Part shown: piece after piece, positions 46,938 to 62,007 of the stretch
How positions within the stretch are numbered: the stretch's first letter is position 1
Layout: every line of letters begins with the position of its first letter
The notes under the pieces: model-generated
Databases searched by the model: none
Told to the model about the DNA's origin: nothing
The model's input: the letters and a program-made list of their open reading frames with translations, nothing else
Assembly: GCA_041663005.1 (NCBI GenBank)
Contig: JBAZRK010000001.1
Coordinates: forward strand, 222,734-286,733
Source of the DNA: Minisyncoccota bacterium
GTDB taxonomy: Bacteria > Patescibacteriota > Minisyncoccia > Phycocordibacterales > UBA9973
Length of the DNA: 64,000 nt
Reading direction: 5' to 3'
Program-made: the position numbers and the translations under genes

Positions 46938-46977
46938 AGTTTGTGTATTATACCCGCAGGTGAACTGGGGTCAAGTC

Positions 46978-48492
46978 CTATATCATCGGCTCGGCTTCGT
47001 GCGAGTTCTTGGCTTGGTGATCCGACTCTACCTGGTCGTAGGCTTCGTCTTCGGCCGTGGCATTTTCCGTGCCGTGAGTGTGACTTTTTGCTTTTCTTTC
47101 AATAATTGCCTTCTCCTCGGCGCTACGGATTATAGTTGCTTCTTCTTGGGCTATGAGTCGCGCAGCGGCGTCCTTAGGAATTGAATACTTGCGACGTGAA
47201 GCGGCAATTATCTCTTCTTGATACGACGGATGCGTCGGTGGCAATACACGCAAGGTCTCCGCCGAGAATGGATCGTAGGACTCTCCGTCGATTGTCATTT
47301 TGATATAAAATTCGGTCACCGCCAAGTTAATCATATCTTTAACATCGAAAAGGGGCGCGAACTCCGGCTTCATTTTGACTGCGTCTTCACCACCGATACG
47401 GAAAGTAATGATGCTTCCGCAATTTCCGAGCACCGCTTGGTGCACGCGAGTAATAATTTGACCGACGTACTGGTGCGCTACGGTAAGATTTAATCCATAT
47501 TTGCGAGCCTCAGAGAGAATGTTCTCGAAGGTTTGAGTCACAACGTTCTGGAACTCGTCCACGTATAGGTAAAAGTCTGTGCGGGCGGATTCATCCATCG
47601 AAGCGCGCTCCATCCCCGCTTGTTTAATCTTTGTCAGGAAAATAGAACCCAAGAATGAAGAATTTTCTTCACCTAGGCGCCCCTTCGAAATGTTAATGAG
47701 AACAATTTTTTTCTCATTCATCAACTTCGAAATATCAATCTTATTTTCCTTTTGTCCGAAAATATTGCGGAGCAACGGGTCTGACAGGAATTGCCCCAGC
47801 TTGTTGACCAGAGGAATGATGGCGTCCGTATCGAACTTCTCAGACCAGTCGGCGAATTCAATAGCGAAGAATCTCTTCACCATATCATCCGTAATGTATT
47901 CCACGACTTTCTGCCGGTAATTCCTGTCTGTCAGCATCGAAATCATCCCGCGCATCGTGGCGTGCGGGTAGTCGAGCAAGGCAAGACAGGTAAAGCGGAA
48001 CACGTGCTCGAGCCTAGGCGTCCAGTTGGCGCCGAATTGTTTCTGGAACACCTCGATCAATCCTTGGGTTAAAATAAATTTGAAAGCGGGATCAACGTTC
48101 GCCAGAGGGTTGAAGGATGCCGGATAATCCTTGTCAGTCGGGTCTATGATGCAGACATCGTCGATGCGATTTTTCGGCACGAAGTCAAGAATATTTTTAA
48201 ATTCGTCGCCGTGCGGGTCGATGAAGCATAGCCCGTGTCCATAATTTATATCCTGTCGAACTAGAAGCTCCAAGAGCTTCGACTTCCCCACCCCGGATTT
48301 TCCAATGATGTAGAGGTGTCTGCGGCGGTCGACGCGCTTGATACCGAAAATAAACTTTTTCTCTTCGAGTGAAGCGACATAGTTCGTACGACCGATGAAA
48401 GAAACTTCCGAAGGGTCAACTTTGCCGAAAACAGGCAGCTCCGGAGGCGGAGGTCCGTATTTTATTATTTGAACTCGATTTGGCTTAGGCAT
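46978..48492 (-). CDS. FtsK/HerA/VirD4-superfamily P-loop ATPase (paralog 1, soluble)
   Basis: Walker A GKSGVGKS, Walker B FYLYVDEFQN, ARKYGLNLTVAHQY. Confidence 0.7.
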   Translation of the reverse strand: MPKPNRVQIIKYGPPPPELPVFGKVDPSEVSFIGRTNYVASLEEKKFIFGIKRVDRRRHLYIIGKSGVGKSKLLELLVRQDINYGHGLCFIDPHGDEFKNILDFVPKNRIDDVCIIDPTDKDYPASFNPLANVDPAFKFILTQGLIEVFQKQFGANWTPRLEHVFRFTCLALLDYPHATMRGMISMLTDRNYRQKVVEYITDDMVKRFFAIEFADWSEKFDTDAIIPLVNKLGQFLSDPLLRNIFGQKENKIDISKLMNEKKIVLINISKGRLGEENSSFLGSIFLTKIKQAGMERASMDESARTDFYLYVDEFQNVVTQTFENILSEARKYGLNLTVAHQYVGQIITRVHQAVLGNCGSIITFRIGGEDAVKMKPEFAPLFDVKDMINLAVTEFYIKMTIDGESYDPFSAETLRVLPPTHPSYQEEIIAASRRKYSIPKDAAARLIAQEEATIIRSAEEKAIIERKAKSHTHGTENATAEDEAYDQVESDHQAKNSHEAEPMI

Positions 48493-48646: not shown

Positions 48647-48653
48647 TAACATT

Positions 48654-50378
48654 TTAGTAAACCTCTTGTTGGTAACAACGTTCACAATACACAATTTCCG
48701 GCCGCTCAGGCGCATAAGAAGTCTCAAATTCGACTTCACACTTCCCTTCGTGGTTAGGATGTTTTTTATCGCACATACATTCTCTGCGCCAAAGTCGGGG
48801 CGGATTGACCAACTTAAATCTCTCCTGGTGCCTGCATTCGAAACAGCTTCGGGGTACAGGTAAATTAAATTTTTTCAGGAATAAAAATTCGTTCTGGATA
48901 ATTTTATAGGGCCTTTTGCAAGTTTCACACTCAATGACATAATTGACTATATCATCACTTGTGTCGTGTATGTCCGGCGGTAAATCTTTCGTGGTGTGAG
49001 TTATGCGCTGCTCTGGTTGTTCACGTTCAATATAGTTGTACCCATTGCTTAAAATATCCGCTTTGGTCTGCGGAAAATAATCTTGCGCGATGGTCTCATT
49101 GTAGCCAAAAGGAGAAATATCAATAGGAAAATATTCGCCATATTTATAAATTCTTCCTTTTTTGTCTATATAGGGCATATCCTGCATATGCTTTATTATT
49201 TCTTCCCTGAGTTTTTCAAAATCGTCCTTGGAATATTCTTTGTTAAAAATGCAATAATTTTTATTGCGTAATCCGACACAGCCAAAAATATTATTGCACC
49301 CGTGGCAATTCAGGGAGTATTCCGCGTTCAGACATTCCCATATCGTCAATCCGAAAAGTTGCCGTGAGCCGTTTATGCCAGAATCCATTGCCTCGTATAG
49401 TAATTCTGTGCTGACCCCAACTCCATAGCCGTCGTAACTTGTATAAAGCCCGTGGACCGCATTGGTAGTAAATTTGCAGTCCTTTAGGTCTTCTGAGTCG
49501 AAACAATGATAAGAGTTTTTTGAATGAAGAATATTATCTCCTGAAACATTTGAAGAATTAAGAATGTTGGCAAACTTTCTCAAGCTTTTTAATCGGAGAC
49601 TTTCGAATTTTTTCTTGGCTTCTTTGAAACTCTCAAAATTCCCTATATTTAATTCGCTTAATTTTTTGAAATACTCGTCTTTTGTCAACTGCTCATTCCA
49701 CATGCAGTAAGATTTATTCCTGAGGTTGGTACAACCAAAACAATTTATGCAGTTTTTACAATCATATAAAAAGTAAGAACTGGTGCATGCTTCGGCGTTT
49801 TGTGAAAAGAAAGTTTCGTAACATTTCAAACTAGAAACATCTCCATAGGAAAACTGGCAATCTCTAGTAATAAACATGTCCATGGAGTCTTTGCAATTAT
49901 TGCACCGCGAGCCGTAAGTAACATTTTCGCCGTCCCAAGACGCGGAGACTAGATAAGCGTTCCTGAATTCACCTATATAATTACCGTATGAAGTATTGAC
50001 GCATTTCCCGATAAAAAGATTTGGATGCGGTACTTGCTCCATCAGGTCCCGAAATTGACCAAAAAATGGCTTAGAAAAGTCATACTCCCTTCCATATTCC
50101 GTAGGGTCCCACTGATCGCCCCACCAAATATCTCGTTCGTACACAATAAACGGAGAGTCGGCTGAAAAGCAACTTATGAGATTTTTCCCTGTCTTTCCGC
50201 ATTTATTGCGATGTAGCGTTCTTTCATTTCGCCAAGCCATCCTTCTTTGCATTCTACACTCCGGGCAAAATGTCGGCGGTGGGACCTTTATTTTTTCGTA
50301 AAAATTGAAATCCTCCGACTCGATTGTAAATTTACCGTTACAATTCTGACATATTACATTTTGTGATTTATACTCCAT
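48654..50378 (-). CDS. Cysteine-rich two-ribbon protein, subtype A, copy 1 (574 aa)
   Basis: N- and C-terminal CxxC-x~24-CxxCR zf-trcl-like ribbons (EDFNFYEKIKVPPPTFCPEC). Internal YDCKNCINCFGC..LRNKSYC repeats. Confidence 0.8.
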   Translation of the reverse strand: MEYKSQNVICQNCNGKFTIESEDFNFYEKIKVPPPTFCPECRMQRRMAWRNERTLHRNKCGKTGKNLISCFSADSPFIVYERDIWWGDQWDPTEYGREYDFSKPFFGQFRDLMEQVPHPNLFIGKCVNTSYGNYIGEFRNAYLVSASWDGENVTYGSRCNNCKDSMDMFITRDCQFSYGDVSSLKCYETFFSQNAEACTSSYFLYDCKNCINCFGCTNLRNKSYCMWNEQLTKDEYFKKLSELNIGNFESFKEAKKKFESLRLKSLRKFANILNSSNVSGDNILHSKNSYHCFDSEDLKDCKFTTNAVHGLYTSYDGYGVGVSTELLYEAMDSGINGSRQLFGLTIWECLNAEYSLNCHGCNNIFGCVGLRNKNYCIFNKEYSKDDFEKLREEIIKHMQDMPYIDKKGRIYKYGEYFPIDISPFGYNETIAQDYFPQTKADILSNGYNYIEREQPEQRITHTTKDLPPDIHDTSDDIVNYVIECETCKRPYKIIQNEFLFLKKFNLPVPRSCFECRHQERFKLVNPPRLWRRECMCDKKHPNHEGKCEVEFETSYAPERPEIVYCERCYQQEVY

Positions 50379-50385
50379 ATACTTT

Positions 50386-50658
50386 TTATTCTATAATTCT
50401 AACGAATTGTAGAATACTTTTCCCGCGCTTACTAAGCGTGTGCCGTACTATACTCCCTTCACTTCTCTTTTTTACTAGACCAGCGATGTACATTTTGTTT
50501 ATATGCGCAGAAATATTTTTAAAGTCCGAGTTTACGTCACTAGAAATTTCCTGAACTGATAAATTGGGTTTCTTGCCCAGTAGCTCAAGTATTTTCAACC
50601 TGTTGTGGTTCGCCACTCCCTTTAAAATCCTTTCTAGCTCTCGTTTTGACTTTTTCAT
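50386..50658 (-). CDS. ArsR/SmtB-family winged-helix transcriptional regulator
   Basis: VANHNRLKILELL recognition-helix region. 90 aa. Confidence 0.8.
   Translation of the reverse strand: MKKSKRELERILKGVANHNRLKILELLGKKPNLSVQEISSDVNSDFKNISAHINKMYIAGLVKKRSEGSIVRHTLSKRGKSILQFVRIIE
50389..50414. promoter_or_regulatory. Operator-like imperfect inverted repeat TTCTATAATTC-taac-GAATTGTAGAA, immediately upstream of the Cys-rich A1 start
   Basis: Near-duplicate of the arsR promoter palindrome. Overlaps the last codons of arsR. Confidence 0.4.
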
Positions 50659-50667
50659 AATTTATCT

Positions 50668-50693
50668 ATTCTATAATTCTATAGAATTGTAGA
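50668..50693. promoter_or_regulatory. 26-bp near-perfect palindrome TTCTATAATTCTA|TAGAATTGTAGAA in the arsR promoter region (candidate ArsR operator)
   Basis: 12 of 13 arm positions match. Located about 10-35 nt upstream of the arsR start codon. Confidence 0.5.
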
Positions 50694-50704
50694 ATGCTCG
50701 TAAA

Positions 50705-52393
50705 TTAGTACACCTCTGCCTGATAACATTTCTCACAATATACTATCTCCGGACGTTCTGGAGCATAACCAGTTTTAATGGCTTTACTGCATTTAATGCA
50801 AGTACGGTCATACAAAAGCGGCGGGTTACGTAGGCTTAAACGTTCAGCGTGTCTACAGTTGGGACATAGACGAGGAAATGGTAAGCCCATACGTTTCAGA
50901 AAATCAAGCTCTGTTTTGATGGCCCGAAATGCACCAGTGCATTCGTGCTTACATGAATCTTTGTGTTCGCATCCAAAAACTTCATTTAGAATTTCTTGGT
51001 CAATGTCTTTTATGTCATCAGGTAAATCACCCGTTTTTAGGGTGATATCGTATTTCGGTTTCTCTATTCCATAATAAACAAAACCCTGTTTCTCCATCTC
51101 GTCTTTAGATAACGGGAAAAATTCCTGCGCGGCACTCACTTCGTATGGATGGGGCGCCAGGGCACTAGGGAAAAATTCACCGTATTCCCCTGTCATTTTC
51201 ATATGCTCAATTATTTTTGGTACCAAGGCCTCGTATTCTTCTTTGGTGTACTGTTTATTTAAAATACAATATTTTTTACCACGTAGTGAAATGCAACCAA
51301 AAAGGTATGCGGAACTTATACAAAATACGCAATAACTTGATTCTCGGAGCTCGGGGAAACAATGCGTGGAAAACTTTACATTGTATGCCCCAGTACCAAC
51401 AATGAGCGACTCATATATCAGCTCGGCATTGTTCCCAAAGTTGGAGTAGTCGTAACAATCTCTTACGGGACCATTTGTAACATTTTGGACCCACTTAGAA
51501 TCCTCCACCCCAACAACTCTATAGCAATCATGTGTATTTTTAGACTCATAAATATAGTCACCTGAAACATTTACGTTTTGTCGACTATGTATGAATTTTT
51601 GGGGATAGTTAAGCCAGTGTGCATATGCTTCGTGTTTTATTGTTTCAAAATTTTTATAAGAACCTAAATGTAATTCTTTTATTTTCTTTAAATATTCTTC
51701 GCGTTCATAAGGCTGGTTGAAAATATAATAAGATTTATTGCGCAAACCCACAGATCCAAAGCACGAATTGCAACCTACGCAATCTTTACAAAAAGTAAGC
51801 TCCTGAGAGCTTTCGCAGTCTACTGAGAAAAGAGTCTGGTAGCAAGTTATACAATTAACGTTGCCGTAAGAAAGCTCGCAGGAATTGGTCATATGACTTT
51901 CAAGTGACCCGCGAGAGCCGTGGTCCCAAATAAGATATGCGGAATCTTCTGTATTGGTAGCACCGCGCACGTAATAGCAGTTTTTGATATTGGTAGCGTT
52001 TGTGCAATAAGAGCAATGTACAGCTCTCTCCATAGATGTCGAAGGCCAGGGAACTTCATGCAAGAGTTCTTTAAATTGTTCAAAAAACGGGCGAGAGAAA
52101 TCAAACTCTCTACCGTATATCATTGGATCCCAACCATCCGAAAACCAGAAATCTCTATCGTAAATTTTTATTGGCGATTCTTCAGGAAGAAAAGAGAATA
52201 TTTTTTCTCCTGTACGAGCATCAGTCTTTTTAAAAACGTGCCAATCATTTCTCCATGTCATTCTACGTTGAAATCTGCACCGCGGACAAAATGTCGGCGG
52301 CGGAACTTGCATTTTTTCATAAAAATTAAAATCTTCGTTGGTTATTACGAAGTCTTTTTTGCAATTCTGGCAGGTTCTTGTTTCGGCTTTCAT
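50705..52393 (-). CDS. Cysteine-rich two-ribbon protein, subtype B, copy 1 (562 aa)
   Basis: Same architecture as above. N-terminus M.AETRTCQNCKKDF. CKDCVGCNSCFG repeat. Confidence 0.8.
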   Translation of the reverse strand: MKAETRTCQNCKKDFVITNEDFNFYEKMQVPPPTFCPRCRFQRRMTWRNDWHVFKKTDARTGEKIFSFLPEESPIKIYDRDFWFSDGWDPMIYGREFDFSRPFFEQFKELLHEVPWPSTSMERAVHCSYCTNATNIKNCYYVRGATNTEDSAYLIWDHGSRGSLESHMTNSCELSYGNVNCITCYQTLFSVDCESSQELTFCKDCVGCNSCFGSVGLRNKSYYIFNQPYEREEYLKKIKELHLGSYKNFETIKHEAYAHWLNYPQKFIHSRQNVNVSGDYIYESKNTHDCYRVVGVEDSKWVQNVTNGPVRDCYDYSNFGNNAELIYESLIVGTGAYNVKFSTHCFPELRESSYCVFCISSAYLFGCISLRGKKYCILNKQYTKEEYEALVPKIIEHMKMTGEYGEFFPSALAPHPYEVSAAQEFFPLSKDEMEKQGFVYYGIEKPKYDITLKTGDLPDDIKDIDQEILNEVFGCEHKDSCKHECTGAFRAIKTELDFLKRMGLPFPRLCPNCRHAERLSLRNPPLLYDRTCIKCSKAIKTGYAPERPEIVYCEKCYQAEVY

Positions 52394-52420
52394 TCCAATA
52401 TTCTTGAAAATGTGAGAATG

Positions 52421-54550
52421 TTATTCTAAGATTTTTCGGAGCACGTCTTCAGGAACTTCGGGCGCAGGCTTCGGCACAGGAGGAACTGGCACCTGGGAGC
52501 TCGCGCTAGGGACAGGAGCTTGCGGAGGCGCCACAGGAGGTGCTGGAGGTTTCGGTGGTGCCGGCGGCGGAACAATAGTTTTCTGAGATATAAGATTTTT
52601 AAGTTTATTCATTTCGTCAGGAGTTGCAGCGCGATCTTTGGAAGACCTCGGGTCCTGATTTACATCTCGCATTTTATTTTTCAAAACATCGAGGGAAATA
52701 GGAGCGGGCGTGGGTTTGGGTGCAGGCTGTGGTGTAGGAGAAACAGGCTTGGCCTGAGAGGCATCTTTGGTCATAACCTTAGAGAGCACGTCTTTGAGCG
52801 CTTGGTTGTCTCCGCTTCGCGGCTGTGGCCTTGGAGCCTGCGGTACATTGTTTCTTTCCTGCTTGATAGGCGGTTTTGGCGTAAAAACTTTCTTGACGTC
52901 ACTGACGACTCCGGGTTTGGCAACTGGGGCGTATGGCTTGTCTACACGTTCGGGGTGCCTGTCGTGAGTTTCTATTTTGCTTTCATCTGGCTTAAACTCT
53001 ATGCCTATGTCCGCCAGAGGTTGGAAAAATTCTGACTCATCGTGAATCGGTTCATCCTTTTGACCTTTCTCCACCTTAACCTCCCCAGACTTAATTTTTG
53101 CGATGCATTCCTTACAGTAAGCAGGGCGGCCAGGTTCTGGTTTAAATGGTACAGTGCGTTCTTGTTTACATAGTGAGCAGATTATTGGGAATTTTTCTCC
53201 GGTTGGTGACGGAGCGCTGTTTGGGACACTGTCGCCCAAGGACATCCCGCTCCAGTCGTTGATCTCACGCTCCACGATTTCCCTTGAACGACAGTAAAGT
53301 TCCCTAGAGGATTTGATAACTTCCTCTTCAATGTTTTTGTCCCCTCCCTTTACCATTGGCGGTAAGGTTTTCGCGGAAAAAGGTCGTGAGGTTATGCCGT
53401 CTATCATAAGCTTCATATAGACCTTGTAGTTCGGCAGGTTCACAATGTCCTGGGGAGTAAACTCAGGCTCGAATTCTTTTTCCAAAAATTCTGCATCGTC
53501 GGCACCAACCCTGAAAACAATCATAGTCCCTACGTTGCCGAACACCGCATCGCGGACAGCGGTACTCTTGTCGGAGATAAGCTGCGCGGTGTACTGGTGC
53601 GCCACCGTGAGGTTCAATCGGTATTTGCGGGCTTCGGAGAGAATCCCCGCGAAAGCGTCCGTCACGAAGTTTTGAAATTCGTCGACATATAGATAGAAGT
53701 CTCGTCGGCTTTCTTCCGGTATACGCACACGCTCCATCGCCGCAAGCTGAATCTTGGTAATTATCATACCTCCGAGCAGAGCGGAGTTGTCTTCCCCGAT
53801 TCTTCCTTTGGAAACGTTGACGAGGAAAATTTTCCCCTCGTTCATCATATCGAAAATATTTATTGTACTTTTCGATTGCCCCACGACGTTTCGAATTATC
53901 GAAGTTGAGAGAAACTGCCCGACTTTGTTCTGAATTGGGGCAATGGCTTCATTTCTGAATTTGTCTTGCCAAGCTTCGTATTCGTGAACCCAGAAAGCTT
54001 TAATCACCGGGTCTTTCAAATTTGAAATTATTTTCTGTCGATAGTCCTTGTCGACGAGCATTCTTGGAATTCCCAAAAGTGTCGTCCCCGGGGTGTCGAG
54101 CAAGGCGAGAATTGTATTGTTTAAAATGTATTCCATTCGGGCGCTCCAAGCATTGGCCCAAATTTTCGTAAAGATTCCCATAAGCCCGGACGCCACGAGG
54201 TGCTTGTACTGCGGGTCTACTAATTCCAAAACATTGAACCCTATGTGGTAGTCGGCATCAGCCGGATTGAAATAGATTACATCCTTCAAGCGATGGCGCG
54301 GGATAGCTCCGAGCACTGTCTCCACGTTTTCTCCGTGAGGGTCGACAAGGCAGACGCCTTCTCCGTTCTGGATGTTCTGGATAATCATATTGAACAATAG
54401 TACCGATTTACCGGTACCTGACTTCCCGAGAAGGTAAACGTGCTGACGCCTATCTTTGCGCTTAATACCAAAAAGCTGGTTTCTATCTCGGTAAGTGGTT
54501 AGCCCGATGTAGGTAACGTCTTTGTTTATAGGTATTTCCGCAATCTCCAT
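52421..54550 (-). CDS. FtsK/HerA/VirD4-superfamily P-loop ATPase (paralog 2) with a C-terminal zinc ribbon and Pro-rich tail. The start is re-set to the internal Met.
   Basis: Walker A GKSGTGKS, Walker B FYLYVDEFQN. CSLCK...RPAYCKEC ribbon. PAPPKPPAPP low-complexity tail. The track start at 54667 would read through the dnaK terminator. Confidence 0.7.
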   Translation of the reverse strand: MEIAEIPINKDVTYIGLTTYRDRNQLFGIKRKDRRQHVYLLGKSGTGKSVLLFNMIIQNIQNGEGVCLVDPHGENVETVLGAIPRHRLKDVIYFNPADADYHIGFNVLELVDPQYKHLVASGLMGIFTKIWANAWSARMEYILNNTILALLDTPGTTLLGIPRMLVDKDYRQKIISNLKDPVIKAFWVHEYEAWQDKFRNEAIAPIQNKVGQFLSTSIIRNVVGQSKSTINIFDMMNEGKIFLVNVSKGRIGEDNSALLGGMIITKIQLAAMERVRIPEESRRDFYLYVDEFQNFVTDAFAGILSEARKYRLNLTVAHQYTAQLISDKSTAVRDAVFGNVGTMIVFRVGADDAEFLEKEFEPEFTPQDIVNLPNYKVYMKLMIDGITSRPFSAKTLPPMVKGGDKNIEEEVIKSSRELYCRSREIVEREINDWSGMSLGDSVPNSAPSPTGEKFPIICSLCKQERTVPFKPEPGRPAYCKECIAKIKSGEVKVEKGQKDEPIHDESEFFQPLADIGIEFKPDESKIETHDRHPERVDKPYAPVAKPGVVSDVKKVFTPKPPIKQERNNVPQAPRPQPRSGDNQALKDVLSKVMTKDASQAKPVSPTPQPAPKPTPAPISLDVLKNKMRDVNQDPRSSKDRAATPDEMNKLKNLISQKTIVPPPAPPKPPAPPVAPPQAPVPSASSQVPVPPVPKPAPEVPEDVLRKILE

Positions 54551-54581
54551 TCCATTAATAATACCAGAAATACCACAAACT

Positions 54582-54606
54582 AAAAAGCCCCTTGCGGGGC
54601 TTTTTG
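54582..54606 (-). terminator. Intrinsic terminator immediately downstream of dnaK
   Basis: aaaaa gcccc ttgc ggggc ttttt, 3 nt after the dnaK stop codon. Confidence 0.7.
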
Positions 54607-54608
54607 AA

Positions 54609-56522
54609 TTACTTAGCTTCGTTCTGAGGAGGTTCCTCGCCTTCTTTCTTTTCCTTGAATTCCGCATCTTTGACTTCAGCGGGTTGTTCTTCGGGGGCTC
54701 CGGTTGGCGGAGTTTGAGCGCCAGCCTTGTTCATTGCCTCACCGATTTTGGACATTTCGGCAGACAATTCTTCGGTGGCCTTTTTGATAGCTTCGCCGTC
54801 TGTTCCATCTTTTACCCCACGAAGCGCAGTAATTTTCGCCTCCACTTCAGTTTTCAATTCTGCGGAAATTTTGTCTCCGGCGTCTTTCACCGCTTTTTCT
54901 GCTGTATAGATAATCATCTCGGCGGTGTTTTTCACTTCAGCATTTTCTTTCTTTTTCTTGTCTTCCTCGGCGTGCACTTCAGCGTCCGCTTGCATCTTTT
55001 TGATATCTTCTTCTTTGAGCCCGGAGCTTGCTTCAATTTTTATTGATTGAGTTTTACCTGAAGCCTTATCTTTCGCAGTAACATTCAATATTCCGTTGGC
55101 ATCCACATCGAATGACACCTCAATCTGCGGCATACCTCGAGGAGCTGGCGGAACACCGTCCAGGATAAATCGCCCGAGAGATTTGTTATCGCTTGCCATT
55201 GGGCGCTCTCCCTGCACAATGTGAATTTCTACAGAAGTCTGATTGTCGGCAGCTGTAGAGAAGGTCTGGGATTTACTGGACGGGATGGTGGTGTTTCTTT
55301 CCACTAATTTCGTAGCCACGCCTCCGAGAGTCTCAATTCCCAGAGAAAGCGGAATAACGTCGAGGAGGAGAACATCGCGTACATCTCCTTGCAAAACTCC
55401 GGCTTGCACCGCAGCACCAAGAGCGACGACTTCGTCAGGGTTAATGGTTAGGTTAGGAGCTTTGCCAAATACTTTTTTCACTTCTTCTACAATCTTCGGC
55501 ATCCTGGTCTGACCTCCGACCATCACTATTTCATTCATATCTTCCATCTTGAATCCAGAGGCAGCCATAGCTCGCTTGGTAATTTCGATAGAGCGAGTAA
55601 CGTATTCATCTGCTAGGGATTCTAACTGCGCCCGAGTCATCTTGAGCAATAAGTGCTGAGGACCTTCTGCTGTAGAAGTGATAAATGGAATGTTGATTTC
55701 GGATTCTATTGCAGTAGAGAGCTCAATTTTTGCTTTTTCTGCTGCTTCGTCTAAGCGTTGCAATGCGAGCTTGTCTCCGCGCACGTCCACTCCGGAAGTT
55801 TTCTTAAATTCTTCGGCAATCCAGTTAATTATCTTGTGGTCAATATCTCGTCCGCCCATATGGCTGTCTCCGTCTGTAGACTTAACTTCGATGACATCAT
55901 CTCCGATTTCGAGCACAGACACGTCGAATGTTCCGCCTCCGAAGTCGTAGACCACTATTTTCTCATTTTTCTTTTTATTAAATCCGTAAGCGAGGGCCGC
56001 CGCTGTAGGCTCGTTGATAATTCTTTTTACATCGAGTCCGGCAATTGCACCTGCGTCTTTCGTTGCCTTTCTTTGGGCATCGTTAAAGTATGCGGGAACA
56101 GTGATGACAGCTTCAGTAATTTTCTCGCCGAGTTTTGTTTCGACGTCAGTTTTAATTTTAGAAAGAATCATCGCCGACACTTCTTCCGGTCGCATCCACT
56201 TATCACCGATTTTTACTTCCACTCCGCCGTTGGCAGATTTTTGAATTTTGAAAGATGCATTCTTTAAATCTTTCTGCACTTCAGGATCTTCAAAATTGTG
56301 ACCCATAAAGCGCTTGATGCCGTACACTGTATTTTCCGGATTGGTCACCGCCTGCCTTTTCGCAAGTAAGCCTACAAGCCTGTCTCCATTTTTAGCAACG
56401 GCTACTACCGAAGGAGTCGTGCGGTTCCCTTCTACGTTTTCAATAATTTTCGGCACACCGCCCTCTATGACGGCTACCGCAGAATTTGTCGTACCCAAGT
56501 CTATTCCTATGATTTTTGACAT
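54609..56522 (-). CDS. dnaK: Chaperone DnaK (Hsp70)
   Basis: [32 protein letters not shown]. Confidence 0.95.
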
Positions 56523-56580
56523 AATTTTATTTTGTTAAAACTTATAATTAATTTTTTAATAGTATATACCATCCAAATTA

Positions 56581-56620
56581 AATTAGCAAGCTCTTCGCGG
56601 TCGCGAAATGGTTGCTAATT
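56581..56620. promoter_or_regulatory. Nested inverted repeat AATTAGCAA-gctc-TTCGCG-gt-CGCGAA-atgg-TTGCTAATT. The arms supply the -35 TTGCTA of both divergent promoters (dnaK and the PaaX-like gene).
   Basis: Read directly. 17-nt spacers lead to TATACT (dnaK side, minus strand) and TATAAT (plus side). The outer arms resemble CIRCE half-sites (TTAGCA/TGCTAA) but the spacing is non-canonical. Confidence 0.5.
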
Positions 56621-56646
56621 CTTAATATATATTATATAATACAGGT

Positions 56647-57168
56647 ATGTCAAGGAAAAAGGACTACTCGGGCAAAATAATCAAAATTTTAGGCAAAAAA
56701 CCGGCTACTTCTGTCGAAGAAATTTGGACTGGTTTCCCTGACCAGAATCGATATTCTGTAACTAGATCATTAAAGGGCCTTCGTGAGGCAGGTCTCATTG
56801 AGGCTCTTTCCTCCGCTCATTGTGAATATGCACGCCTCACAAAAGAAGGAAAAAAGAAAATGCATAGTCTAATTCTCGAGAGTAATACTGGCCTGGTGAA
56901 CACTTCCTGGGACGGATTTTGGAGGATAATTTTGCTCGACCTTCCAGAAGAAAGAAAAAGCGAGCGCGAAAGTCTGCGCTACCTACTAAAAAAAGCTGGC
57001 TTCGTCTGCCTAAAGAATTCTGCCTGGATCTCCCCTTTCCCATACGAGCATCTCTTCACAAATATTAAAAAAGATTTAGGCCTGACGACAGAAATGATGA
57101 TTATGGTCACCGACAAAATCGACGAAGAATCTAAAAAGGTTTTATTTCAAACCTTCGGGCAAAGTTAA
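56647..57168 (+). CDS. PaaX-like transcriptional regulator (wHTH plus PaaX_C-like domain)
   Basis: C-terminal WDGFW...LPEER...LRYLL.KAGF..L.NSAWISPFP matches the PaaX C-domain pattern (recalled from memory). Confidence 0.55.
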   Translation: MSRKKDYSGKIIKILGKKPATSVEEIWTGFPDQNRYSVTRSLKGLREAGLIEALSSAHCEYARLTKEGKKKMHSLILESNTGLVNTSWDGFWRIILLDLPEERKSERESLRYLLKKAGFVCLKNSAWISPFPYEHLFTNIKKDLGLTTEMMIMVTDKIDEESKKVLFQTFGQS

Positions 57169-57206
57169 TCTCCTTACATATGTAAGGATAGGTGTAAGGA
57201 GATTAA
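57166..57206. terminator. Convergent-gene hairpin: perfect 14-bp inverted repeat TTAATCTCCTTACA ... TGTAAGGAGATTAA, with an inner CCTTACAtaTGTAAGG palindrome
   Basis: Lies between the PaaX-like stop and the Cys-rich A2 stop. Confidence 0.45.
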
Positions 57207-58888
57207 TACACCTCTTTGTTGTAGCAACTTTCGCAATAAACTTTCTCCGGTCGCTCTGGAGAGTAGGGTGTTTCAAATTCATTCTGGCAACCTGAATTCA
57301 TACATTGTCTGTGCCAAAGCTTAAGTGGGTTCTTTTTACGTACACGTTCGCCGTGACGACAAAATGGACATAATGTGGGTAGTGGTAAATTAAATTTTTT
57401 ATAGAAGTTGTATTCAAATAGTGTAATCTTAAACGCCCTCGGGCAGTTGTCATCACACTTACCTCCATGTCCACACTCTATTACCTGTTCGAGGATTCCT
57501 AGGTCTGGTAAAATGTCGGGAATTGCAGAATTTTTTAATGTAATATCGTAATTTTTCTCCTCCAAAACTGCCCAATTGAAACCTTCTGCTCCAGCCCTTT
57601 CGGAATCAAGCGGAAAGTAGTCTTGGGCTTGAGTCTCGTTATATCCAAAAGGAGAATATTTCGCGGGGAAAAATTCTCCGTATTCTCCCAATTTCAGCAT
57701 CTGGTCGACTATCTCTTTTCGTAGTTTTAAGTAGTCTTCTTTCGAATATTGCTTATTGAAAATGCAGTAAGACTTATTGCGGAGACCTATGCACCCAAAA
57801 ATATTGTTACAGTCAAAACAATTATACGAATATTCAATATCGAAACCTCCCCATATGAGCGAAGAGAAATTTACTCGCTGGGCCTCAACACTGTGGGTGT
57901 CATAACAAAGCTCTGCGCCATCCCAAGCAATGGTCCCATCATAAATATCCTTACAGTTGCCCCACACCCTAAAGGAGTAGCGCACATTTTCTGAATCTCT
58001 CACATAAAAACCCTGATTTACAAAGCGTGCGTTCAGCACATCATCCCCTATCGCTTTTTCAGCCTTAGTAATCACCGCGTATTTCCTGGGAACTTTTAAC
58101 TTTAACTCTTCGAATTTTTCCTGGGTATTACTTAGTCCTGCGCGAGAATTCAATTTGAGTTCTTCTAATTTTTTAAAATATTCTTCCTTGGAGTATTGTT
58201 CGTTAAAAATACAGTAAGACTGACTGCGCAAACCTACACACCCAATACAATTGTTGCAATTACGACAGTCATATAAGTAATAAGAATCGACACACCCTTC
58301 GCAGTTCTGACTAAAAAATAAATTGTAGGATTTAACGCAATCAATTAGTTCGTAACAATACTCGGCAAAATTAGAACCATATAAATCAACAGAAAACTTG
58401 GTGTCCGTAACCGCACCAAACACATAAGACGAGTCCTCCACGCGCACAAAGCCCGCCGACCAATAAACATTCTTGGCATCGGTGCAATAGTTGGTATATT
58501 CACTATTTACGCCATTACGAGTTACGACATTCGGATGCGGTACCGCTTTTAAAAGTTCGTCGAATTGCTCGAAGAATGGACGTGTAAAATCATATTCACG
58601 ACCGAAAGACATAGGGTCCCACGCATCACTACGGAAATAGGCCTGTTCATAAACTTTATACGGAGCATCAGGTCGAAAAATAGAGAGCATTGGCTTGCCC
58701 GTGGCATCACACACCCGCCTGTGCCAGCTGCGCTCATTGCGCCAAGCCATACGTCTCTTCATCCTGCATTCAAAACAAAACGTCGGCGGTGGAACTTTTA
58801 TTTTTTCATAGAAACTAAAATCTTCACTTTCTATGGTGAAATCTTTTTTACAGTTTTGGCAGATTTTGTTTTCGTTTTTATATTCCAT
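57203..58888 (-). CDS. Cysteine-rich two-ribbon protein, subtype A, copy 2 (561 aa)
   Basis: N-terminus MEYKNENKICQNCKKDFTIESEDFSFYEKIKVPPPTFC, near-identical to copy A1. YDCRNCNNCIGC repeat. Confidence 0.8.
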   Translation of the reverse strand: MEYKNENKICQNCKKDFTIESEDFSFYEKIKVPPPTFCFECRMKRRMAWRNERSWHRRVCDATGKPMLSIFRPDAPYKVYEQAYFRSDAWDPMSFGREYDFTRPFFEQFDELLKAVPHPNVVTRNGVNSEYTNYCTDAKNVYWSAGFVRVEDSSYVFGAVTDTKFSVDLYGSNFAEYCYELIDCVKSYNLFFSQNCEGCVDSYYLYDCRNCNNCIGCVGLRSQSYCIFNEQYSKEEYFKKLEELKLNSRAGLSNTQEKFEELKLKVPRKYAVITKAEKAIGDDVLNARFVNQGFYVRDSENVRYSFRVWGNCKDIYDGTIAWDGAELCYDTHSVEAQRVNFSSLIWGGFDIEYSYNCFDCNNIFGCIGLRNKSYCIFNKQYSKEDYLKLRKEIVDQMLKLGEYGEFFPAKYSPFGYNETQAQDYFPLDSERAGAEGFNWAVLEEKNYDITLKNSAIPDILPDLGILEQVIECGHGGKCDDNCPRAFKITLFEYNFYKKFNLPLPTLCPFCRHGERVRKKNPLKLWHRQCMNSGCQNEFETPYSPERPEKVYCESCYNKEVY

Positions 58889-58894
58889 ATTTTA

Positions 58895-58916
58895 GATCTA
58901 CGCTATAGCGTAGATC
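58895..58916. promoter_or_regulatory. Perfect 22-bp palindrome GATCTACGCTATAGCGTAGATC, ending 6 nt upstream of the A2 start codon
   Basis: Read directly and verified to be its own reverse complement. Confidence 0.45.
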
Positions 58917-58921
58917 GATTT

Positions 58922-60619
58922 TTAATACACTTCTTTGTTGTAGCAACTTTCGCAATAAACTTTCTCCGGCCGCTCTGGAGAATATGGAGTTTCAAATTCG
59001 TTAGGGCATTTTGCGGCATGGCCGTGAGCTTCGACTGCACATTTGCAATTACTATGCCAAAGACGGCGCGGCGGACGCAAACCAAATCTCCTTCTGTATC
59101 TGCAGTTCGGGCACTTTCGCGGTATTGGAATTTTCTCTTTTTGATAAAACAAAAACTCGTTTCGGGTAATATTGTAATTTTTTGAACATTCTACGCAAGC
59201 TAAAATTTCGTTCAGAATGGTTTCCGGCACATCTTCTATTTTATCAGGAATTTTTTCGCTCGTGATAGTTTCCTTGCCCAAAGTACCGCCCAAGTTTTCT
59301 TCCCAATGCCAACCTTTGGCTAAAACTTCGTTTTTTGTCATTGGCTCATACATATTGCCCTGCGTTTCGTTGTAGTAAATAGGCGCAATTTGAGGTGGAA
59401 AAAATTCGCCATATTCCCCTGTTCTCTTCATATGCTCAATGATTTTTTCTTTTAGCGCCAGATAGTCTGCTTTAGAATATTTTTTATTAAAAATCATGTA
59501 TTCGCCCTTTTTCACACTCACGCAACCAAAAAGATTCTGGCTATTTTGGCAAGTGTCGGAATAATCAATATTCATGTTGTCGTAAGATAAATGGCAAAAA
59601 TGGCAATTGGAAATACGAGCACTCCCCTGACACTCGTAGCTCAATTCAACATGGTCGCCCACGTGATATAAATCCATAGAATCCTTTACCCCATCCGGAC
59701 TGCAGATAAGAAATTTAGAATTCTCCCCCATTAGTGTCTCAAATGATAATGCCACGTTCCTGCAGTCAAAAATCATGCTACCTATAGAGTTAATATTTCT
59801 TTCACTTACAGTGTAACGGTGTACGGCCTCTTCCCGCATAATCTTTTCAAATTCTTTCTCTAGGCCTTGGCGTACCGTAAACGAAGAGAGATCGTATTCT
59901 TTTATCTTTTTTAAATATTCTTCCCGAGTATACTGTTTATTGCGGAATACATAACTTTTGCCCCGGAGGTTTGTAGACATAAAGCAATTATTACATCCGC
60001 GACAATCGAAACAGTAAAAACAAGAAGAGCAATCTTTTATGAATTTCCCATACTGACATTCATAAGAAATACGAGAGTCCGTAACTTCGTACAATCTTTC
60101 TCCTTTCTCGTAAATGTAGCTGCAATCTATTAAATCTCGCGAGTTCCAAATTAATGTGCTGTATAACGCATTCTCGTTGTAGAAGGCAGAAAAGGTGAGG
60201 TAAACATTTTTATTATCACTCGAATGATTGGTATATTCAGAATTTTCACTATTTTTATTTAGGAGTGCCATGCGGGGTACGTCATGCTGGAGTTCGGCAA
60301 ACTGTTCAAAAAATGGGCGAGAAAAATCAAAATCGCGGCCGTAAGAAGTCGCATCCCAGCCATCGCCCCACCAGCACGAATTGCAATACACTTTATAGGG
60401 CTTATTTTGGGAATAAATCGTCACCGTACTCTTGCCGCACAAGTCGCACGACCTACGGTATAAATTGCGTTCGTTCCTCCACGCATAACGCCGCAACTGC
60501 CGACAGCCTGGACACCAAGTCGGCGGTGGGACTTTAATCTTCTCATAAAAATTAAAGTCTTCACTATCAATCGTGAAATCTTGTTTACAGTTTTGACAAT
60601 TTCTGGTTTCTGGTCTCAT
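58922..60619 (-). CDS. Cysteine-rich two-ribbon protein, subtype B, copy 2 (565 aa)
   Basis: N-terminus MRPETRNCQNCKQDF. CFYCFDCRGCNNC repeat. The C-terminal 28 aa are identical to copy A2. Confidence 0.8.
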   Translation of the reverse strand: MRPETRNCQNCKQDFTIDSEDFNFYEKIKVPPPTWCPGCRQLRRYAWRNERNLYRRSCDLCGKSTVTIYSQNKPYKVYCNSCWWGDGWDATSYGRDFDFSRPFFEQFAELQHDVPRMALLNKNSENSEYTNHSSDNKNVYLTFSAFYNENALYSTLIWNSRDLIDCSYIYEKGERLYEVTDSRISYECQYGKFIKDCSSCFYCFDCRGCNNCFMSTNLRGKSYVFRNKQYTREEYLKKIKEYDLSSFTVRQGLEKEFEKIMREEAVHRYTVSERNINSIGSMIFDCRNVALSFETLMGENSKFLICSPDGVKDSMDLYHVGDHVELSYECQGSARISNCHFCHLSYDNMNIDYSDTCQNSQNLFGCVSVKKGEYMIFNKKYSKADYLALKEKIIEHMKRTGEYGEFFPPQIAPIYYNETQGNMYEPMTKNEVLAKGWHWEENLGGTLGKETITSEKIPDKIEDVPETILNEILACVECSKNYNITRNEFLFYQKEKIPIPRKCPNCRYRRRFGLRPPRRLWHSNCKCAVEAHGHAAKCPNEFETPYSPERPEKVYCESCYNKEVY

Positions 60620-60688
60620 ATCATCATACTAGTACGCTAGTGTCTGTTCTAGGCGATATTTTGTTTATAACACTCAAAAAGATGTCGA

Positions 60689-60973
60689 TTATAAAGAGTT
60701 ATCCACATCGCTGTTTTTATTGTGAAAAAACCGGAATGGCATATTATCCACCAGAATGGGGTTATCAGAAAATAGCCTGCGAAGAGCTGAAACTCCTTTT
60801 CTAAATTTACCAAATACGGAAAAAGCAAAATGCTGCTTAACGCGACATCCAAAGCATTGCTCCGGGATTTTCAATCCTACTTTTTCATACAAAAGTAAAT
60901 CGCCAGAATCTATTATAAATTCTTCTTTACAATCAGCGCAAATTTTACTCTCCGTTTTTGAATTCATAGACAT
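60689..60973 (-). CDS. Stand-alone single zf-trcl-like zinc-ribbon protein (~90 aa). A miniature relative of the Cys-rich family.
   Basis: CADCKEEFIIDSGDLLLYEKVGLKIPEQCFGCR. Its start region overlaps the grpE 3' end. Confidence 0.5.
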   Translation of the reverse strand: MSMNSKTESKICADCKEEFIIDSGDLLLYEKVGLKIPEQCFGCRVKQHFAFSVFGKFRKGVSALRRLFSDNPILVDNMPFRFFHNKNSDVDNSL

Positions 60974-61535
60974 TCACCCGAGCGGCACGCATTACGCGCT
61001 CACCGAGCTTATAGCCTTTCTGCACAACTTCGGCAACTTTATGGTCAAGGTCTTTCTGGTCCGTGGCCACCATATCTATAGACTGGTGAATGTTGGGGTC
61101 GAAAGCTTCACCCTCTTCACCTATCGGCTTCACGCCATATTCCTCGAATATGCCATTCATTTGCGCATAAATATACTCCACGCCCTTGCGCCAAGTAGCG
61201 TCAACTTTCTCCCAGGCCTCCTTGTTGGCGAAAGCCATATTGAAACTGTCTATAACCGTCAGGAAACGAGTAAGTATTCGCTCGCGCATCGCTTCGGAAA
61301 AGACGCCCTTGCGGTCATCTTCCTGCTTTTTATAGTTGGCAAAGTCGGCCCGCTCTTTCTGCCAGCCTGTTAGATACTCTTCTTTCTCTTTTTTGGCTTG
61401 TTTTAGGTCAGCGCGAAGCTTTTTGAGGGTTTTTTTCACGTCTTCTTCGCCGTCGTCATTAAATTCAAACTCGACAACATCATCTTCCGCCTCAGGCTCT
61501 TCTTTTTTCTTATCTTCATCGTTCATATGGCTCAT
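60945..61535 (-). CDS. grpE: Nucleotide exchange factor GrpE. The start is re-set to the ATG downstream of the terminator.
   Basis: GrpE coiled-coil and beta domain (NPQDAV-like HQSIDMV). The track's TTG start at 61562 lies inside the terminator hairpin. Confidence 0.85.
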   Translation of the reverse strand: MSHMNDEDKKKEEPEAEDDVVEFEFNDDGEEDVKKTLKKLRADLKQAKKEKEEYLTGWQKERADFANYKKQEDDRKGVFSEAMRERILTRFLTVIDSFNMAFANKEAWEKVDATWRKGVEYIYAQMNGIFEEYGVKPIGEEGEAFDPNIHQSIDMVATDQKDLDHKVAEVVQKGYKLGERVMRAARVNVYEFKNGE

Positions 61536-61543
61536 ATTAGCAT

Positions 61544-61574
61544 AAAAAAATCCCTCTTCCAAGAGGGATTTTTT
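61544..61574. terminator. Bidirectional intrinsic terminator between rpsI and grpE
   Basis: aaaaaaa tccctctt cc aagaggga tttttt. Confidence 0.7.
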
Positions 61575-61584
61575 CGTAAAATAA

Positions 61585-62007
61585 TTAACGTTTTGACCAC
61601 TGAGGAGCTTTGCGGGCTTTCTTCAAACCGAACTTGCGGCGTTCTTTTGCCCTAGGGTCACGTTTCAAAAACCCGAGAACTTTGAGTCCTCCGCGCAATT
61701 CTCCGTCGGAAACAACTAGAGCTCGAGACAATCCTAGGCGCACAGCTTCAGCTTGAGAGTGCATACCTCCGCCAGAAACCTTAGCTTCTACGCTCCACTT
61801 TGTTTCTGCTTTCTCAGCGCTCATACCCTTAACTATAGGGTCAAGGACAAGGCGTCGTTCCACTTCAGTATGGAAATATTCTCGCGCTTCTTTGCCATTA
61901 ACTACGAAGTGGGTCTTGGTTCCCTTGGTGATGCGGACTCGGGCGGTAGAAGTTTTGCGTCTACCTATGGCCTCGATGTATTTTTCCTTTTTTGTTTCTT
62001 TATCCAT
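61585..62007 (-). CDS. rpsI: 30S ribosomal protein S9
   Basis: GRRKTSTARV ... C-terminal KKARKAPQWSKR. Confidence 0.95.
   Translation of the reverse strand: MDKETKKEKYIEAIGRRKTSTARVRITKGTKTHFVVNGKEAREYFHTEVERRLVLDPIVKGMSAEKAETKWSVEAKVSGGGMHSQAEAVRLGLSRALVVSDGELRGGLKVLGFLKRDPRAKERRKFGLKKARKAPQWSKR

What the first reader, a model, noticed from the sequence alone, without database searches (positions are those of the whole stretch)
57203..60619. The Cys-rich genes occur as duplicated B-then-A pairs, with C-termini homogenised within each pair
N-termini sort into subtype A (MEYK..., genes at 48654 and 57203) and subtype B (M.xETRxCQNCK.DF, genes at 50705 and 58922). On the minus strand each locus reads B then A, which suggests an obligate A/B heteromer that was duplicated as a unit. 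The last 28 aa of A2 and B2 are identical (CPNEFETPYSPERPEKVYCESCYNKEVY), and the 3' ~75 nt of the two genes are about 92% identical at the DNA level. A1 and B1 share a different common ending (YAPERPEIVYCE.CYQ.EVY). This points to gene conversion or concerted evolution between tandem neighbours.
Basis: seen in the sequence. Interest (0 to 1): 0.7.

Follow-up and report, generated by a model that had tools for sequence, protein, structure and literature searches.

The report
Short gene conversion between neighbouring Cys-rich paralogues
Four old copies of an uncharacterised zinc-finger/beta-solenoid protein family of Patescibacteria sit in two gene arrays, and one copy has had its last ~80 bases overwritten by its neighbour; the proposed "duplicated A/B partner pairs" do not hold up.

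Summary
The four genes are real and lie at the stated coordinates. The sequence details are nearly right: A2 and B2 share their last 26 residues (not 28), 72 of 78 nt, and a 38-nt exact run.

Gene conversion is supported for A2/B2 only.
- Identical residues use the same codon in 20 of 26 cases in the tail, against 43% in the rest of the gene.
- A permutation test on polymorphic sites gives p=0.0002.
- B2's tail is closer to A2 and to an A2 orthologue than to any B2 orthologue.

The shared A1/B1 ending is the family-wide consensus (…PERPEIVYCEKCYQQEVY). Its codons are no more alike than elsewhere in the genes.

The idea of an A/B heteromer duplicated as a unit is not supported.
- Each gene belongs to its own old orthogroup; orthologues in other genomes are 52-82% identical, against 38-49% between the window's paralogues.
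- B1 and B2 are the least similar pair.
- The "A" and "B" N-terminal signatures do not follow orthology.
- Relatives carry arrays of 1-9 copies with different neighbours.
- A decayed fifth copy sits upstream of B2.

The family is large (more than 2,200 clusters at 50% identity), confined to Patescibacteria, and has no Pfam or NCBIfam assignment. Its function is unknown.

The parts
57203..58888 (-). A2, a 561-aa Cys-rich family member with 30 Cys. It has an N-terminal CxxC…CxxC zinc finger, an internally duplicated beta-solenoid core, and C-terminal zinc knuckles.
   Evidence: ORF. Orthogroup with L081 82%, L082 and L084 68%, L063 59%, bootstrap 100. AF2 model pLDDT 87.9, pTM 0.89. The two core halves are 49% identical over 70 aa.
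58922..60619 (-). B2, a 565-aa family member immediately upstream of A2, with a 33-nt spacer containing a 9-bp-stem palindrome.
   Evidence: ORF. Orthogroup with L082 68%, L078 67%, L081 59%, bootstrap 100. Palindrome at 58895-58916.
57203..57283 (-). Conversion tract, A2 copy (the inferred donor): stop codon plus the last 26 codons. The 38-nt exact run is 57213-57250.
   Evidence: 72/78 nt identical to the B2 copy and 20 of 26 codons identical. The tail carries the A2-orthologue features EFET and RPEKV.
58922..59002 (-). Conversion tract, B2 copy (the inferred acceptor): stop codon plus the last 26 codons. The 38-nt exact run is 58932-58969.
   Evidence: In the last 78 nt, B2 is 92% identical to A2 and 81% to L081's A2 orthologue, but only 74%, 62% and 65% to the B2 orthologues of L081, L082 and L078. 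The flanks are diverged on both sides.
48654..50378 (-). A1, a 574-aa family member in the second array.
   Evidence: ORF. Orthogroup of 8 genomes at 67-75% identity, bootstrap 100.
50705..52393 (-). B1, a 562-aa family member. Its tail fits CxxC-x17-CxxC exactly.
   Evidence: ORF. Nearest relative is L046|8178 at 52%, bootstrap 96. Sub-threshold matches to zf_Tbcl and zf_Tbcl_2.
50386..50658 (-). ArsR-type winged-helix gene between B1 and A1. It is bracketed by 29-nt direct repeats at 50387-50415 and 50667-50695.
   Evidence: HTH_5, E=1e-7. Repeat found twice with 0 expected by chance.
60649..60973 (-). Relic of a fifth family member, the 'Q-type' with a CYKQNIA tail. The N-terminal ~64 codons are kept and the core of ~450 codons is deleted. 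The codons for residues 511-547 are inverted (they read on the plus strand at 60676-60786). The last 8 codons and the stop are kept.
   Evidence: tblastn with the intact Q-type genes of L082 and L078. Translation of the plus-strand piece. blastn to L085 shows this piece alone in the opposite orientation.
52421..54667 (-). TraD/VirD4-like (DUF87/TrwB) ATPase with a CxxC-x17-CxxC zinc domain, directly upstream of array 2.
   Evidence: Pfam TrwB_AAD_bind and zf_Tbcl_2 above cutoff. TIGR04272 at 41.2 bits against a cutoff of 36.
46978..48492 (-). Second TraD/VirD4-like ATPase, directly downstream of array 2.
   Evidence: Pfam DUF87, TraG-D_C and TrwB_AAD_bind. Its position is conserved in L002-L005.

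Best explanation
The four genes are old, independently maintained paralogues of a large Patescibacteria-specific family of cytoplasmic proteins of about 570 aa. Each has a conserved N-terminal zinc finger, a variable and internally duplicated Cys-rich beta-solenoid core, and conserved C-terminal zinc knuckles.

They lie in two same-strand arrays inside a conserved block: S9, grpE, [array 1], paaX-like, dnaK, ATPase, [array 2], ATPase, dnaJ.

The arrays gain, lose and exchange members over evolutionary time. The window's two 'pairs' are simply the current state. Array 1 has lost a Q-type copy, which survives only as a deleted and inverted relic.

In this lineage, after it split from the lineage of locus L081, a short non-reciprocal recombination event copied about 80 nt from the 3' end of A2 onto B2, 1.7 kb away. 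This is ectopic gene conversion. Six synonymous differences have accumulated since.

The tract lies in one of the two most conserved modules of the family, where enough nucleotide identity survives to prime recombination. The same kind of event is seen at the 5' and 3' ends of paralogues in other genomes. The A1/B1 similarity needs no such event, because both genes simply keep the family consensus tail.

Shown: the paralogy, orthogroups, synteny, tract boundaries, codon excess and tail incongruence.
Inferred: the recombination mechanism, the A2-to-B2 direction and the timing.
Unknown: the biochemical function.
For: - Tract: the last 26 aa are identical, 72/78 nt match, and there is a 38-nt exact run. 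Sequence just upstream of the tract and after the stop codon is diverged.
- Codon test: 20 of 26 codons shared in the tail against 86 of 199 elsewhere, p=0.001.
- Permutation test: a run of 25 agreeing polymorphic sites, p=0.0002. The other five pairs give p>=0.012.
- Incongruence: in the core, A2 and B2 are 35% identical and each groups with its own orthologues at bootstrap 100. In the tail they are each other's nearest sequence at 96%.
- Direction: B2's tail is closer to L081's A2 orthologue (0.81) than to B2 orthologues (0.62-0.74).
- Concerted pattern across genomes: both orthologues read N…CESCYNKEVY in the window and in L081, and V…CEKCYQQEVY in L082.
- Generality: L077, L038 and L020 have 41-116-nt exact tracts at gene ends between paralogues that are only 42-50% identical as proteins outside the tail. 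Tail identity of at least 95% occurs in 4.3% of adjacent pairs against 0.5% of between-genome pairs.
- The termini are the most conserved parts family-wide: 60% against 30-36% in the core.
- Array dynamics.
Against: - It is therefore not recent, and a patchy tract or strong codon-level constraint cannot be fully excluded.
- Across all adjacent pairs the mean tail identity (0.60) equals that of random between-genome pairs (0.61). Homogenisation is sporadic, not systematic.
- The direction rests on small differences (0.81 against 0.74 over 78 nt).
- The phylogeny is neighbour-joining only, and its deep nodes are unresolved. An ancient duplication of a two-gene unit cannot be formally excluded.
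- No read-level data were available.
- The presence of recA/recombination genes in this genome was not checked.
Confidence: 0.75

Rival explanations
1. A and B are two subunit types of an obligate heteromer. The B-A gene pair was duplicated as a unit. Both pairs undergo concerted evolution of their C-termini.
For: In both places a 'B' gene precedes an 'A' gene on the same strand. A1-A2 is the most similar pair at 48%. B2-then-A2 adjacency is conserved in L081 and L082. The A2/B2 tail is homogenised.
Against: - B1-B2 is the least similar pair at 38%.
- No bootstrap support for A1+A2 or B1+B2 clades.
- Three of the six A1 orthologues listed (L002-L004) have 'B-type' N-termini.
- The gene upstream of A1 orthologues comes from at least three orthogroups, 34% identical to one another, and B1 is only 37-44% identical to any of them.
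- In L085 an A1-like gene follows a Q-type gene next to grpE.
- In L078 the B2 orthologue is followed by a different member, and in L084 the A2 orthologue has no upstream family member.
- 45 of 97 complete arrays are singletons, and arrays of 3-9 copies occur.
- The A1/B1 tail has no nucleotide signal and equals the family consensus.
Confidence: 0.07
2. There was no recombination. The identical A2/B2 tail reflects strong purifying or convergent selection on the zinc-knuckle peptide, plus codon-level constraint such as codon bias, mRNA structure or termination context.
For: The tail is one of the two most conserved segments family-wide at 60% mean identity. The CESCYNKEVY variant recurs in several genomes and orthogroups. 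Both L081 orthologues have it while their codons are diverged.
Against: - Selection on the peptide does not predict shared synonymous codons: 77% in the tail against 43% elsewhere, and against 42% for A1/B1, whose tails are equally constrained.
- It does not predict a 38-nt exact run.
- It does not explain why B2's tail resembles A2 orthologues more than B2 orthologues.
- Other genomes show tracts of up to 116 nt that are 100% identical.
Confidence: 0.1
3. It is an assembly artefact. Repeat collapse or a chimeric join gave the two genes the same 3' end.
For: The source is a metagenome-assembled genome and the family is repetitive.
Against: - The two copies differ at 6 of 78 positions, and the unique flanks begin immediately on both sides.
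- The exact run is only 38 nt, shorter than usual reads.
- Both reading frames are intact.
- Each of the four proteins is on record under two NCBI accessions, on contigs of up to 336,733 bp; A1's exact sequence is held on a 332,839-bp ENA contig.
- An independent sample (L081) has the same peptide motif in both orthologues.
Confidence: 0.03

Closest known systems
Ectopic (interlocus) gene conversion between bacterial paralogues. Examples from general knowledge, not tested here: the duplicated tuf genes of enterobacteria, and outer-membrane or pilin gene families of Neisseria and Helicobacter.
   Same: A short non-reciprocal tract of near-identity sits inside otherwise diverged paralogues. It shows an excess of synonymous identity and a local tree that conflicts with the gene tree.
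   Different: Here the tract is confined to a terminal zinc-knuckle module of a cytoplasmic protein family in a reduced Patescibacteria genome. The cores stay 35% identical, and there is no evidence for a programmed variation system.
CxxC-x17-CxxC / zf_Tbcl_2 zinc-binding domain (TIGR04272, PF23477) and zf_Tbcl (PF13451)
   Same: The converted tail carries C-x17-CxxC spacing, and B1 fits CxxC-x17-CxxC exactly. The neighbouring ATPase at 52421-54667 has a bona fide copy. Small Methanosarcina proteins with this domain bind zinc (PMC12704099).
   Different: The matches in the four genes are below the curated cutoffs (15-19 bits against 24-27). In A2 the first knuckle is Cx4C. The domain is only the last ~35 residues of a ~570-aa protein.
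Beta-solenoid proteins: left-handed beta-helix acyltransferases, insect and plant antifreeze proteins, curli CsgA

Membership tests
Gene conversion tract (process) | A bounded segment of much higher nucleotide identity than the rest of the paralogue alignment | tested here: met
   A2/B2: 92% over the last 78 nt against 52% overall. Sequence is diverged just upstream of the tract and after the stop. A1/B1: 67% in the last 78 nt, so not met.
Gene conversion tract (process) | An excess of identical synonymous codons relative to the gene background | tested here: met
   A2/B2: 20 of 26 against 86 of 199, p=0.001. A1/B1: 8 of 19 against 85 of 202, p=0.59.
Gene conversion tract (process) | A significant run of agreeing polymorphic sites (GENECONV-type permutation) | tested here: met
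   A2/B2: run of 25, p=0.0002. A1/B1: run of 9, p=0.32.
Gene conversion tract (process) | The local phylogeny conflicts with the gene phylogeny | tested here: met
   Core: A2 and B2 sit in separate orthogroups with bootstrap 100. Tail: they are mutual nearest neighbours, and B2's tail is closer to A2 orthologues.
Obligate heteromer encoded by a co-duplicated gene pair | The same two orthogroups are adjacent across genomes | tested here: not met
   B2og-A2og adjacency is seen only in the window, L081 and L082. It is broken in L078, L084, L063 and L028. The A1og partner differs between genomes.
Obligate heteromer encoded by a co-duplicated gene pair | Tree topology ((A1,A2),(B1,B2)) | tested here: inconclusive
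   The NJ tree does not recover it, and the deep nodes have bootstrap below 25. B1-B2 has the lowest identity.
Obligate heteromer encoded by a co-duplicated gene pair | A physical A-B interaction | not testable with these tools
   No multimer prediction or experiment was available.
zf_Tbcl_2 / CxxC-x17-CxxC (PF23477, TIGR04272) | Profile score above the curated cutoff | tested here: not met
   B1 18.4, B2 16.8 and A2 15.3 bits against a cutoff of 27; A1 has no hit. No NCBIfam hit for any of the four.
zf_Tbcl_2 / CxxC-x17-CxxC (PF23477, TIGR04272) | Four Cys with 17-residue spacing between the knuckles | tested here: met
   Read directly from the sequences: B1 has CIKC-x17-CEKC, and A2 has C529x4C534-x17-C552xxC555.
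zf_Tbcl (PF13451), N-terminal | Profile score above the curated cutoff | tested here: not met
   B1 18.7 and B2 14.7 bits against a cutoff of 24. A1 and A2 have no hit.
Left-handed beta-helix / hexapeptide transferases | Significant structural or sequence match to the LbH fold | tested here: not met

The most novel reading that the evidence does not exclude
The family could be a diversifying 'handle-and-cargo' system of Patescibacteria. On this reading the conserved N- and C-terminal zinc modules are common docking handles. They are kept uniform within a genome by recurrent short-tract gene conversion. They might dock onto the neighbouring soluble TraD/VirD4-like ATPases, one of which carries the same CxxC-x17-CxxC module. 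Meanwhile the beta-solenoid cores diverge into many specificities, for example as translocated or host-directed factors.
Probability: 0.12. Interest if true: 0.75.

Novelty: new member of a known kind. Interest (0 to 1): 0.35.

Why it matters
There is one ordinary short gene-conversion tract and no evidence for duplicated heteromer pairs.

What remains of value is descriptive:
- The family is very large: at least 2,274 clusters at 50% identity with E<=1e-30.
- Its architecture is uniform.
- It has no annotation.
- It forms dynamic arrays inside the grpE-dnaK-dnaJ block and next to TraD/VirD4-like ATPases.
- Its terminal zinc modules are occasionally homogenised within genomes.

These features give a concrete starting point for finding out what one of the more abundant unknown protein families of Patescibacteria does.

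Tried and rejected
- Pfam, NCBIfam and PADLOC scans of the four proteins gave only sub-threshold zinc-finger hits and no defence-system match.
- A profile search of PDB sequences found nothing.
- Three literature searches found no description of the family. The Patescibacteria T4SS paper mentions many orphan VirD4 homologues but not these proteins.
- I considered that the shared 'MEYK' N-terminus of A1 and A2 might be a second conversion. There is no nucleotide signal: 14 of 39 codons are shared, which is not above background.
- The A1-A2 17-nt exact run (p=0.012) does not survive correction for six pairs.
- I considered a systematic tail homogenisation between neighbours. I rejected it as a general rule because adjacent pairs average the same tail identity as random between-genome pairs.
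Full report
**What is there.** The region holds four intact paralogous ORFs on the minus strand: A1 48654-50378, B1 50705-52393, A2 57203-58888 and B2 58922-60619. tblastn with the four proteins finds no other full copy in the 64-kb window. It does find a short extra match at about 60820-60967.

The proteins are 561-574 aa long with 30-33 Cys. Pairwise identity is 38-49%. A1-A2 is the highest and B1-B2 the lowest.

The exact proteins are annotated 'hypothetical protein' in a Candidatus Paceibacterota MAG (WCT29_01465 to WCT29_01500). They are on record under two NCBI accessions each; the contigs holding them are 336,733 bp, plus a 332,839-bp ENA contig for A1.

**Checking the observation.** A2 differs at the second residue (Q against P), so the last 26 residues are identical.

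All six differences are synonymous, and there is a 38-nt exact run. The codon just upstream of the tract and the bases after the stop codon differ, so the tract is bounded at about 80 nt.

A1 and B1 do share YAPERPEIVYCE.CYQ.EVY. However, their last 78 nt are only 67% identical.

- B1 and A1 are separated by an ArsR-type HTH gene.
- There is a decayed fifth copy upstream of B2 (described below).

**Is the A2/B2 tail more than protein-level constraint?** Three tests say yes.
- Codon sharing. Among identical residues, 20 of 26 use the same codon in the tail, against 86 of 199 (43%) in the rest of the gene (Fisher p=0.001). For A1/B1 the figures are 8 of 19 against 42%, p=0.59.
- Permutation. I ran a GENECONV-style permutation on 1,374 polymorphic sites of a 14-sequence codon alignment. 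A2/B2 give a run of 25 agreeing sites at the extreme 3' end, p=0.0002. A1/B1 give p=0.32, and no other pair survives correction.
- Incongruence. In the core, A2 and B2 are 35% identical and each groups with its own orthologues. In the tail they are each other's nearest sequence among 225 family members.

B2's tail is 92% identical to A2's and 81% to the A2 orthologue of L081. It is only 74%, 62% and 65% identical to the B2 orthologues of L081, L082 and L078. It also carries the A2-type residues EFET and RPEKV. I therefore infer that A2 was the donor and B2 the acceptor. I also infer that the event came after the split from the L081 lineage, because 92% exceeds the 79-81% seen between the window's tails and the A2 orthologue of L081.

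**The wider family.** One protein search returned more than 6,600 hits, those that carry a source name being Patescibacteria 'hypothetical proteins', with no Pfam domain in any of the 120 listed. A profile search of 1.84 billion representatives found 2,274 clusters at E<=1e-30. The listed hits are mostly full-length, about 545-600 aa.

I fetched 80 genome loci and seven further contigs. In these, members occur in same-strand arrays of 1-9 copies. The complete arrays break down as follows:

| Copies in array | 1 | 2 | 3 | 4 | 5 | 6 | 7 | 9 |
|---|---|---|---|---|---|---|---|---|
| Number of arrays | 45 | 31 | 7 | 8 | 3 | 1 | 1 | 1 |

**Phylogeny.** I built a neighbour-joining tree on 515 core columns of 225 members with 100 bootstraps. 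Each window gene falls in its own orthogroup:
- A1 with seven other genomes (67-75% identity, bootstrap 100).
- A2 with five other loci (54-82% identity, bootstrap 100).
- B2 with three (59-68% identity, bootstrap 100).
- B1 with one (52% identity, bootstrap 96).

Deeper nodes have bootstrap below 25, and neither A1+A2 nor B1+B2 is recovered. Orthologues in other genomes are more similar than the window's paralogues are to each other. The four genes therefore diverged long before these genomes did.

**Synteny.** The block S9, grpE, [array 1], paaX-like (opposite strand), dnaK, ATPase, [array 2], ATPase, dnaJ is conserved in L002-L005, L078 and L082. The content of the arrays is not conserved.

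| Genome | Array 1 content |
|---|---|
| Window | relic + B2 + A2 |
| L082 | Q-type + B2og + A2og + one more |
| L078 | Q-type + B2og + two others |
| L081 | B2og + A2og directly after grpE (contig ends after A2og) |
| L085 | Q-type + an A1-like gene (81% identical to A1) next to grpE |

In array 2, the gene upstream of the A1 orthologue belongs to at least three different orthogroups:
- L002 and L004 are 68% identical to each other.
- L003 and L005 are 63% identical to each other.
- The two sets are 34% identical to one another.
- B1 is 37-44% identical to all of them.

This is not what a conserved heteromer pair would look like.

**N-terminal 'subtypes'.** 'MEY' starts occur in 14 of 225 members, scattered over genomes and orthogroups. 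The 'B' signature is simply the family consensus.

**Tails.** CEKCYQQEVY is the commonest ending: 58 of 225 exactly, and 70 of 225 end in CYQQEVY. The A1/B1 ending is therefore retention of the consensus.

CYNKEVY is the second most common ending (18 of 225) and tends to recur within genomes. Both orthologues read N…CESCYNKEVY in the window and in L081, and V…CEKCYQQEVY in L082. This is a concerted pattern across genomes.

Over 306 within-locus pairs, the window's A2/B2 ranks fourth for excess codon sharing. Stronger cases are in L077, L038 and L020. There, exact tracts of 41-116 nt occur at both the 5' and 3' ends of genes, between adjacent and non-adjacent paralogues.

The phenomenon is sporadic, however. 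Mean tail identity of adjacent pairs (0.60) equals that of random between-genome pairs (0.61). Only the extreme class is enriched: tail identity of at least 95% occurs in 4.3% of adjacent pairs against 0.5% of random pairs.

Family-wide, the two termini are the most conserved segments (60% mean identity against 30-36% in the core). I infer that this is why recombination tracts are seen there.

**The relic.** On the minus strand, 60967-60776 encodes the first ~64 residues of a Q-type member (64-65% identical to the intact genes of L082 and L078). Then 60676-60786 encodes residues 511-547 of that gene, but on the plus strand (73% identity, no stop codon). Finally 60675-60652 encodes the last eight residues, ECYKQNIA, on the minus strand. 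blastn against L085 shows this 110-nt piece alone in the opposite orientation to all other matches. So the window once had at least three genes in array 1. One of them suffered a ~1.3-kb internal deletion and a small in-situ inversion.

**What the proteins are.** Pfam gives only sub-threshold zf_Tbcl (N-terminus) and zf_Tbcl_2 (C-terminus) matches. NCBIfam and PADLOC give nothing.

An AF2 model of A2 is confident (pLDDT 87.9, pTM 0.89). It shows zinc-finger-like ends and a core of short, regularly spaced strands in two homologous halves (49% identity over 70 aa).

The converted tail is the second half of a C-x17-CxxC zinc knuckle. The neighbouring ATPase at 52421-54667 carries a bona fide CxxC-x17-CxxC domain. 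That domain binds zinc in Methanosarcina small proteins (PMC12704099).

TraD/VirD4-like ATPases lie within 3 kb of 64 of 120 arrays in my sample, which is biased toward A1-like loci. One also sits in the middle of a large array in a Staskawiczbacteria genome. A singleton in L087 has none among the genes listed within 10 kb. Both ATPases lack an obvious N-terminal transmembrane segment, judged by reading the sequences.

The function remains unknown. The docking-handle idea given as the novel case is speculation.

**Verdict.** Gene conversion is supported for A2/B2 only. The heteromer-pair duplication is not supported. Short-tract conversion between tandem paralogues is a well-known process. The uncharacterised family and its array dynamics are the more interesting residue.

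Noticed in passing
window 60649-60973: Pseudogene relic of a fifth ('Q-type', CYKQNIA-tailed) family member. The N-terminal ~64 codons and the last 8 codons are on the minus strand. The core is deleted. The codons for residues 511-547 are inverted in place and read on the plus strand at 60676-60786.
   Followed up: yes
window 50387-50415 and 50667-50695 (minus strand): A 29-nt direct repeat (0 expected by chance) brackets the arsR-like gene. One copy is the gene's own last 9 codons plus stop (ILQFVRIIE*), directly upstream of A1's ATG. The other lies between B1's stop and the arsR ATG. It looks like the footprint of a duplication or insertion of arsR, or a shared operator/promoter. In L002 the arsR homologue sits after the A1 orthologue instead.
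   Followed up: partly
window 45864-62007; loci L002-L005, L078, L082: The heat-shock genes grpE, dnaK and dnaJ are split by two Cys-rich gene arrays, a paaX-like gene and two TraD/VirD4-like ATPases. This interrupted arrangement is conserved across several Paceibacteria genomes.
   Followed up: partly
window 46978-48492 and 52421-54667; L086 6994-8478: TraD/VirD4-like ATPases flank the arrays (within 3 kb of 64 of 120 arrays in a biased sample); the two in the window have no obvious N-terminal transmembrane segment. The 748-aa one carries a CxxC-x17-CxxC zinc domain like the tails of the Cys-rich proteins, followed by a long Pro/Ala-rich C-terminus.
   Followed up: partly
window 58895-58916: A perfect 9-bp-stem palindrome, GATCTACGC-TATA-GCGTAGATC, fills most of the 33-nt spacer between B2's stop and A2's start. 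It is not followed by a T-run on the coding strand, so it is more likely an operator or processing site than a terminator.
   Followed up: no
L077 (7619, 12002, 15415, 17192), L038 (9998, 13514), L020 (11798, 13559): Other genomes have much cleaner conversion tracts in this family. Exact runs of 41-116 nt occur at the 3' or 5' ends of paralogues that are only 42-50% identical as proteins outside the tail, including non-adjacent copies.
   Followed up: partly
L085 8256-11725: In another genome, an A1-like gene (81% identical to A1) lies directly after an intact Q-type gene next to grpE. That is the position of array 1, not array 2, so orthogroup members move between the two arrays.
   Followed up: partly
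window A1 and A2 N-termini (50352-50378, 58862-58888): A1 and A2 share a MEYK..N.IC start that most of their own orthologues lack. The same start is scattered over 14 of 225 family members. The N-terminal module therefore also has a mosaic distribution, although there is no nucleotide-level signal in this window.
   Followed up: partly
A2 residues ~175-245 and ~325-395 (window ~58154-58366 and ~57704-57916): The Cys-rich core is an internal duplication. The two halves are 49% identical over 70 aa, and each ends in …C.NC.N.FGC.GLRNKSYCIFN.QYSKE(E/D)Y followed by helices.
   Followed up: partly
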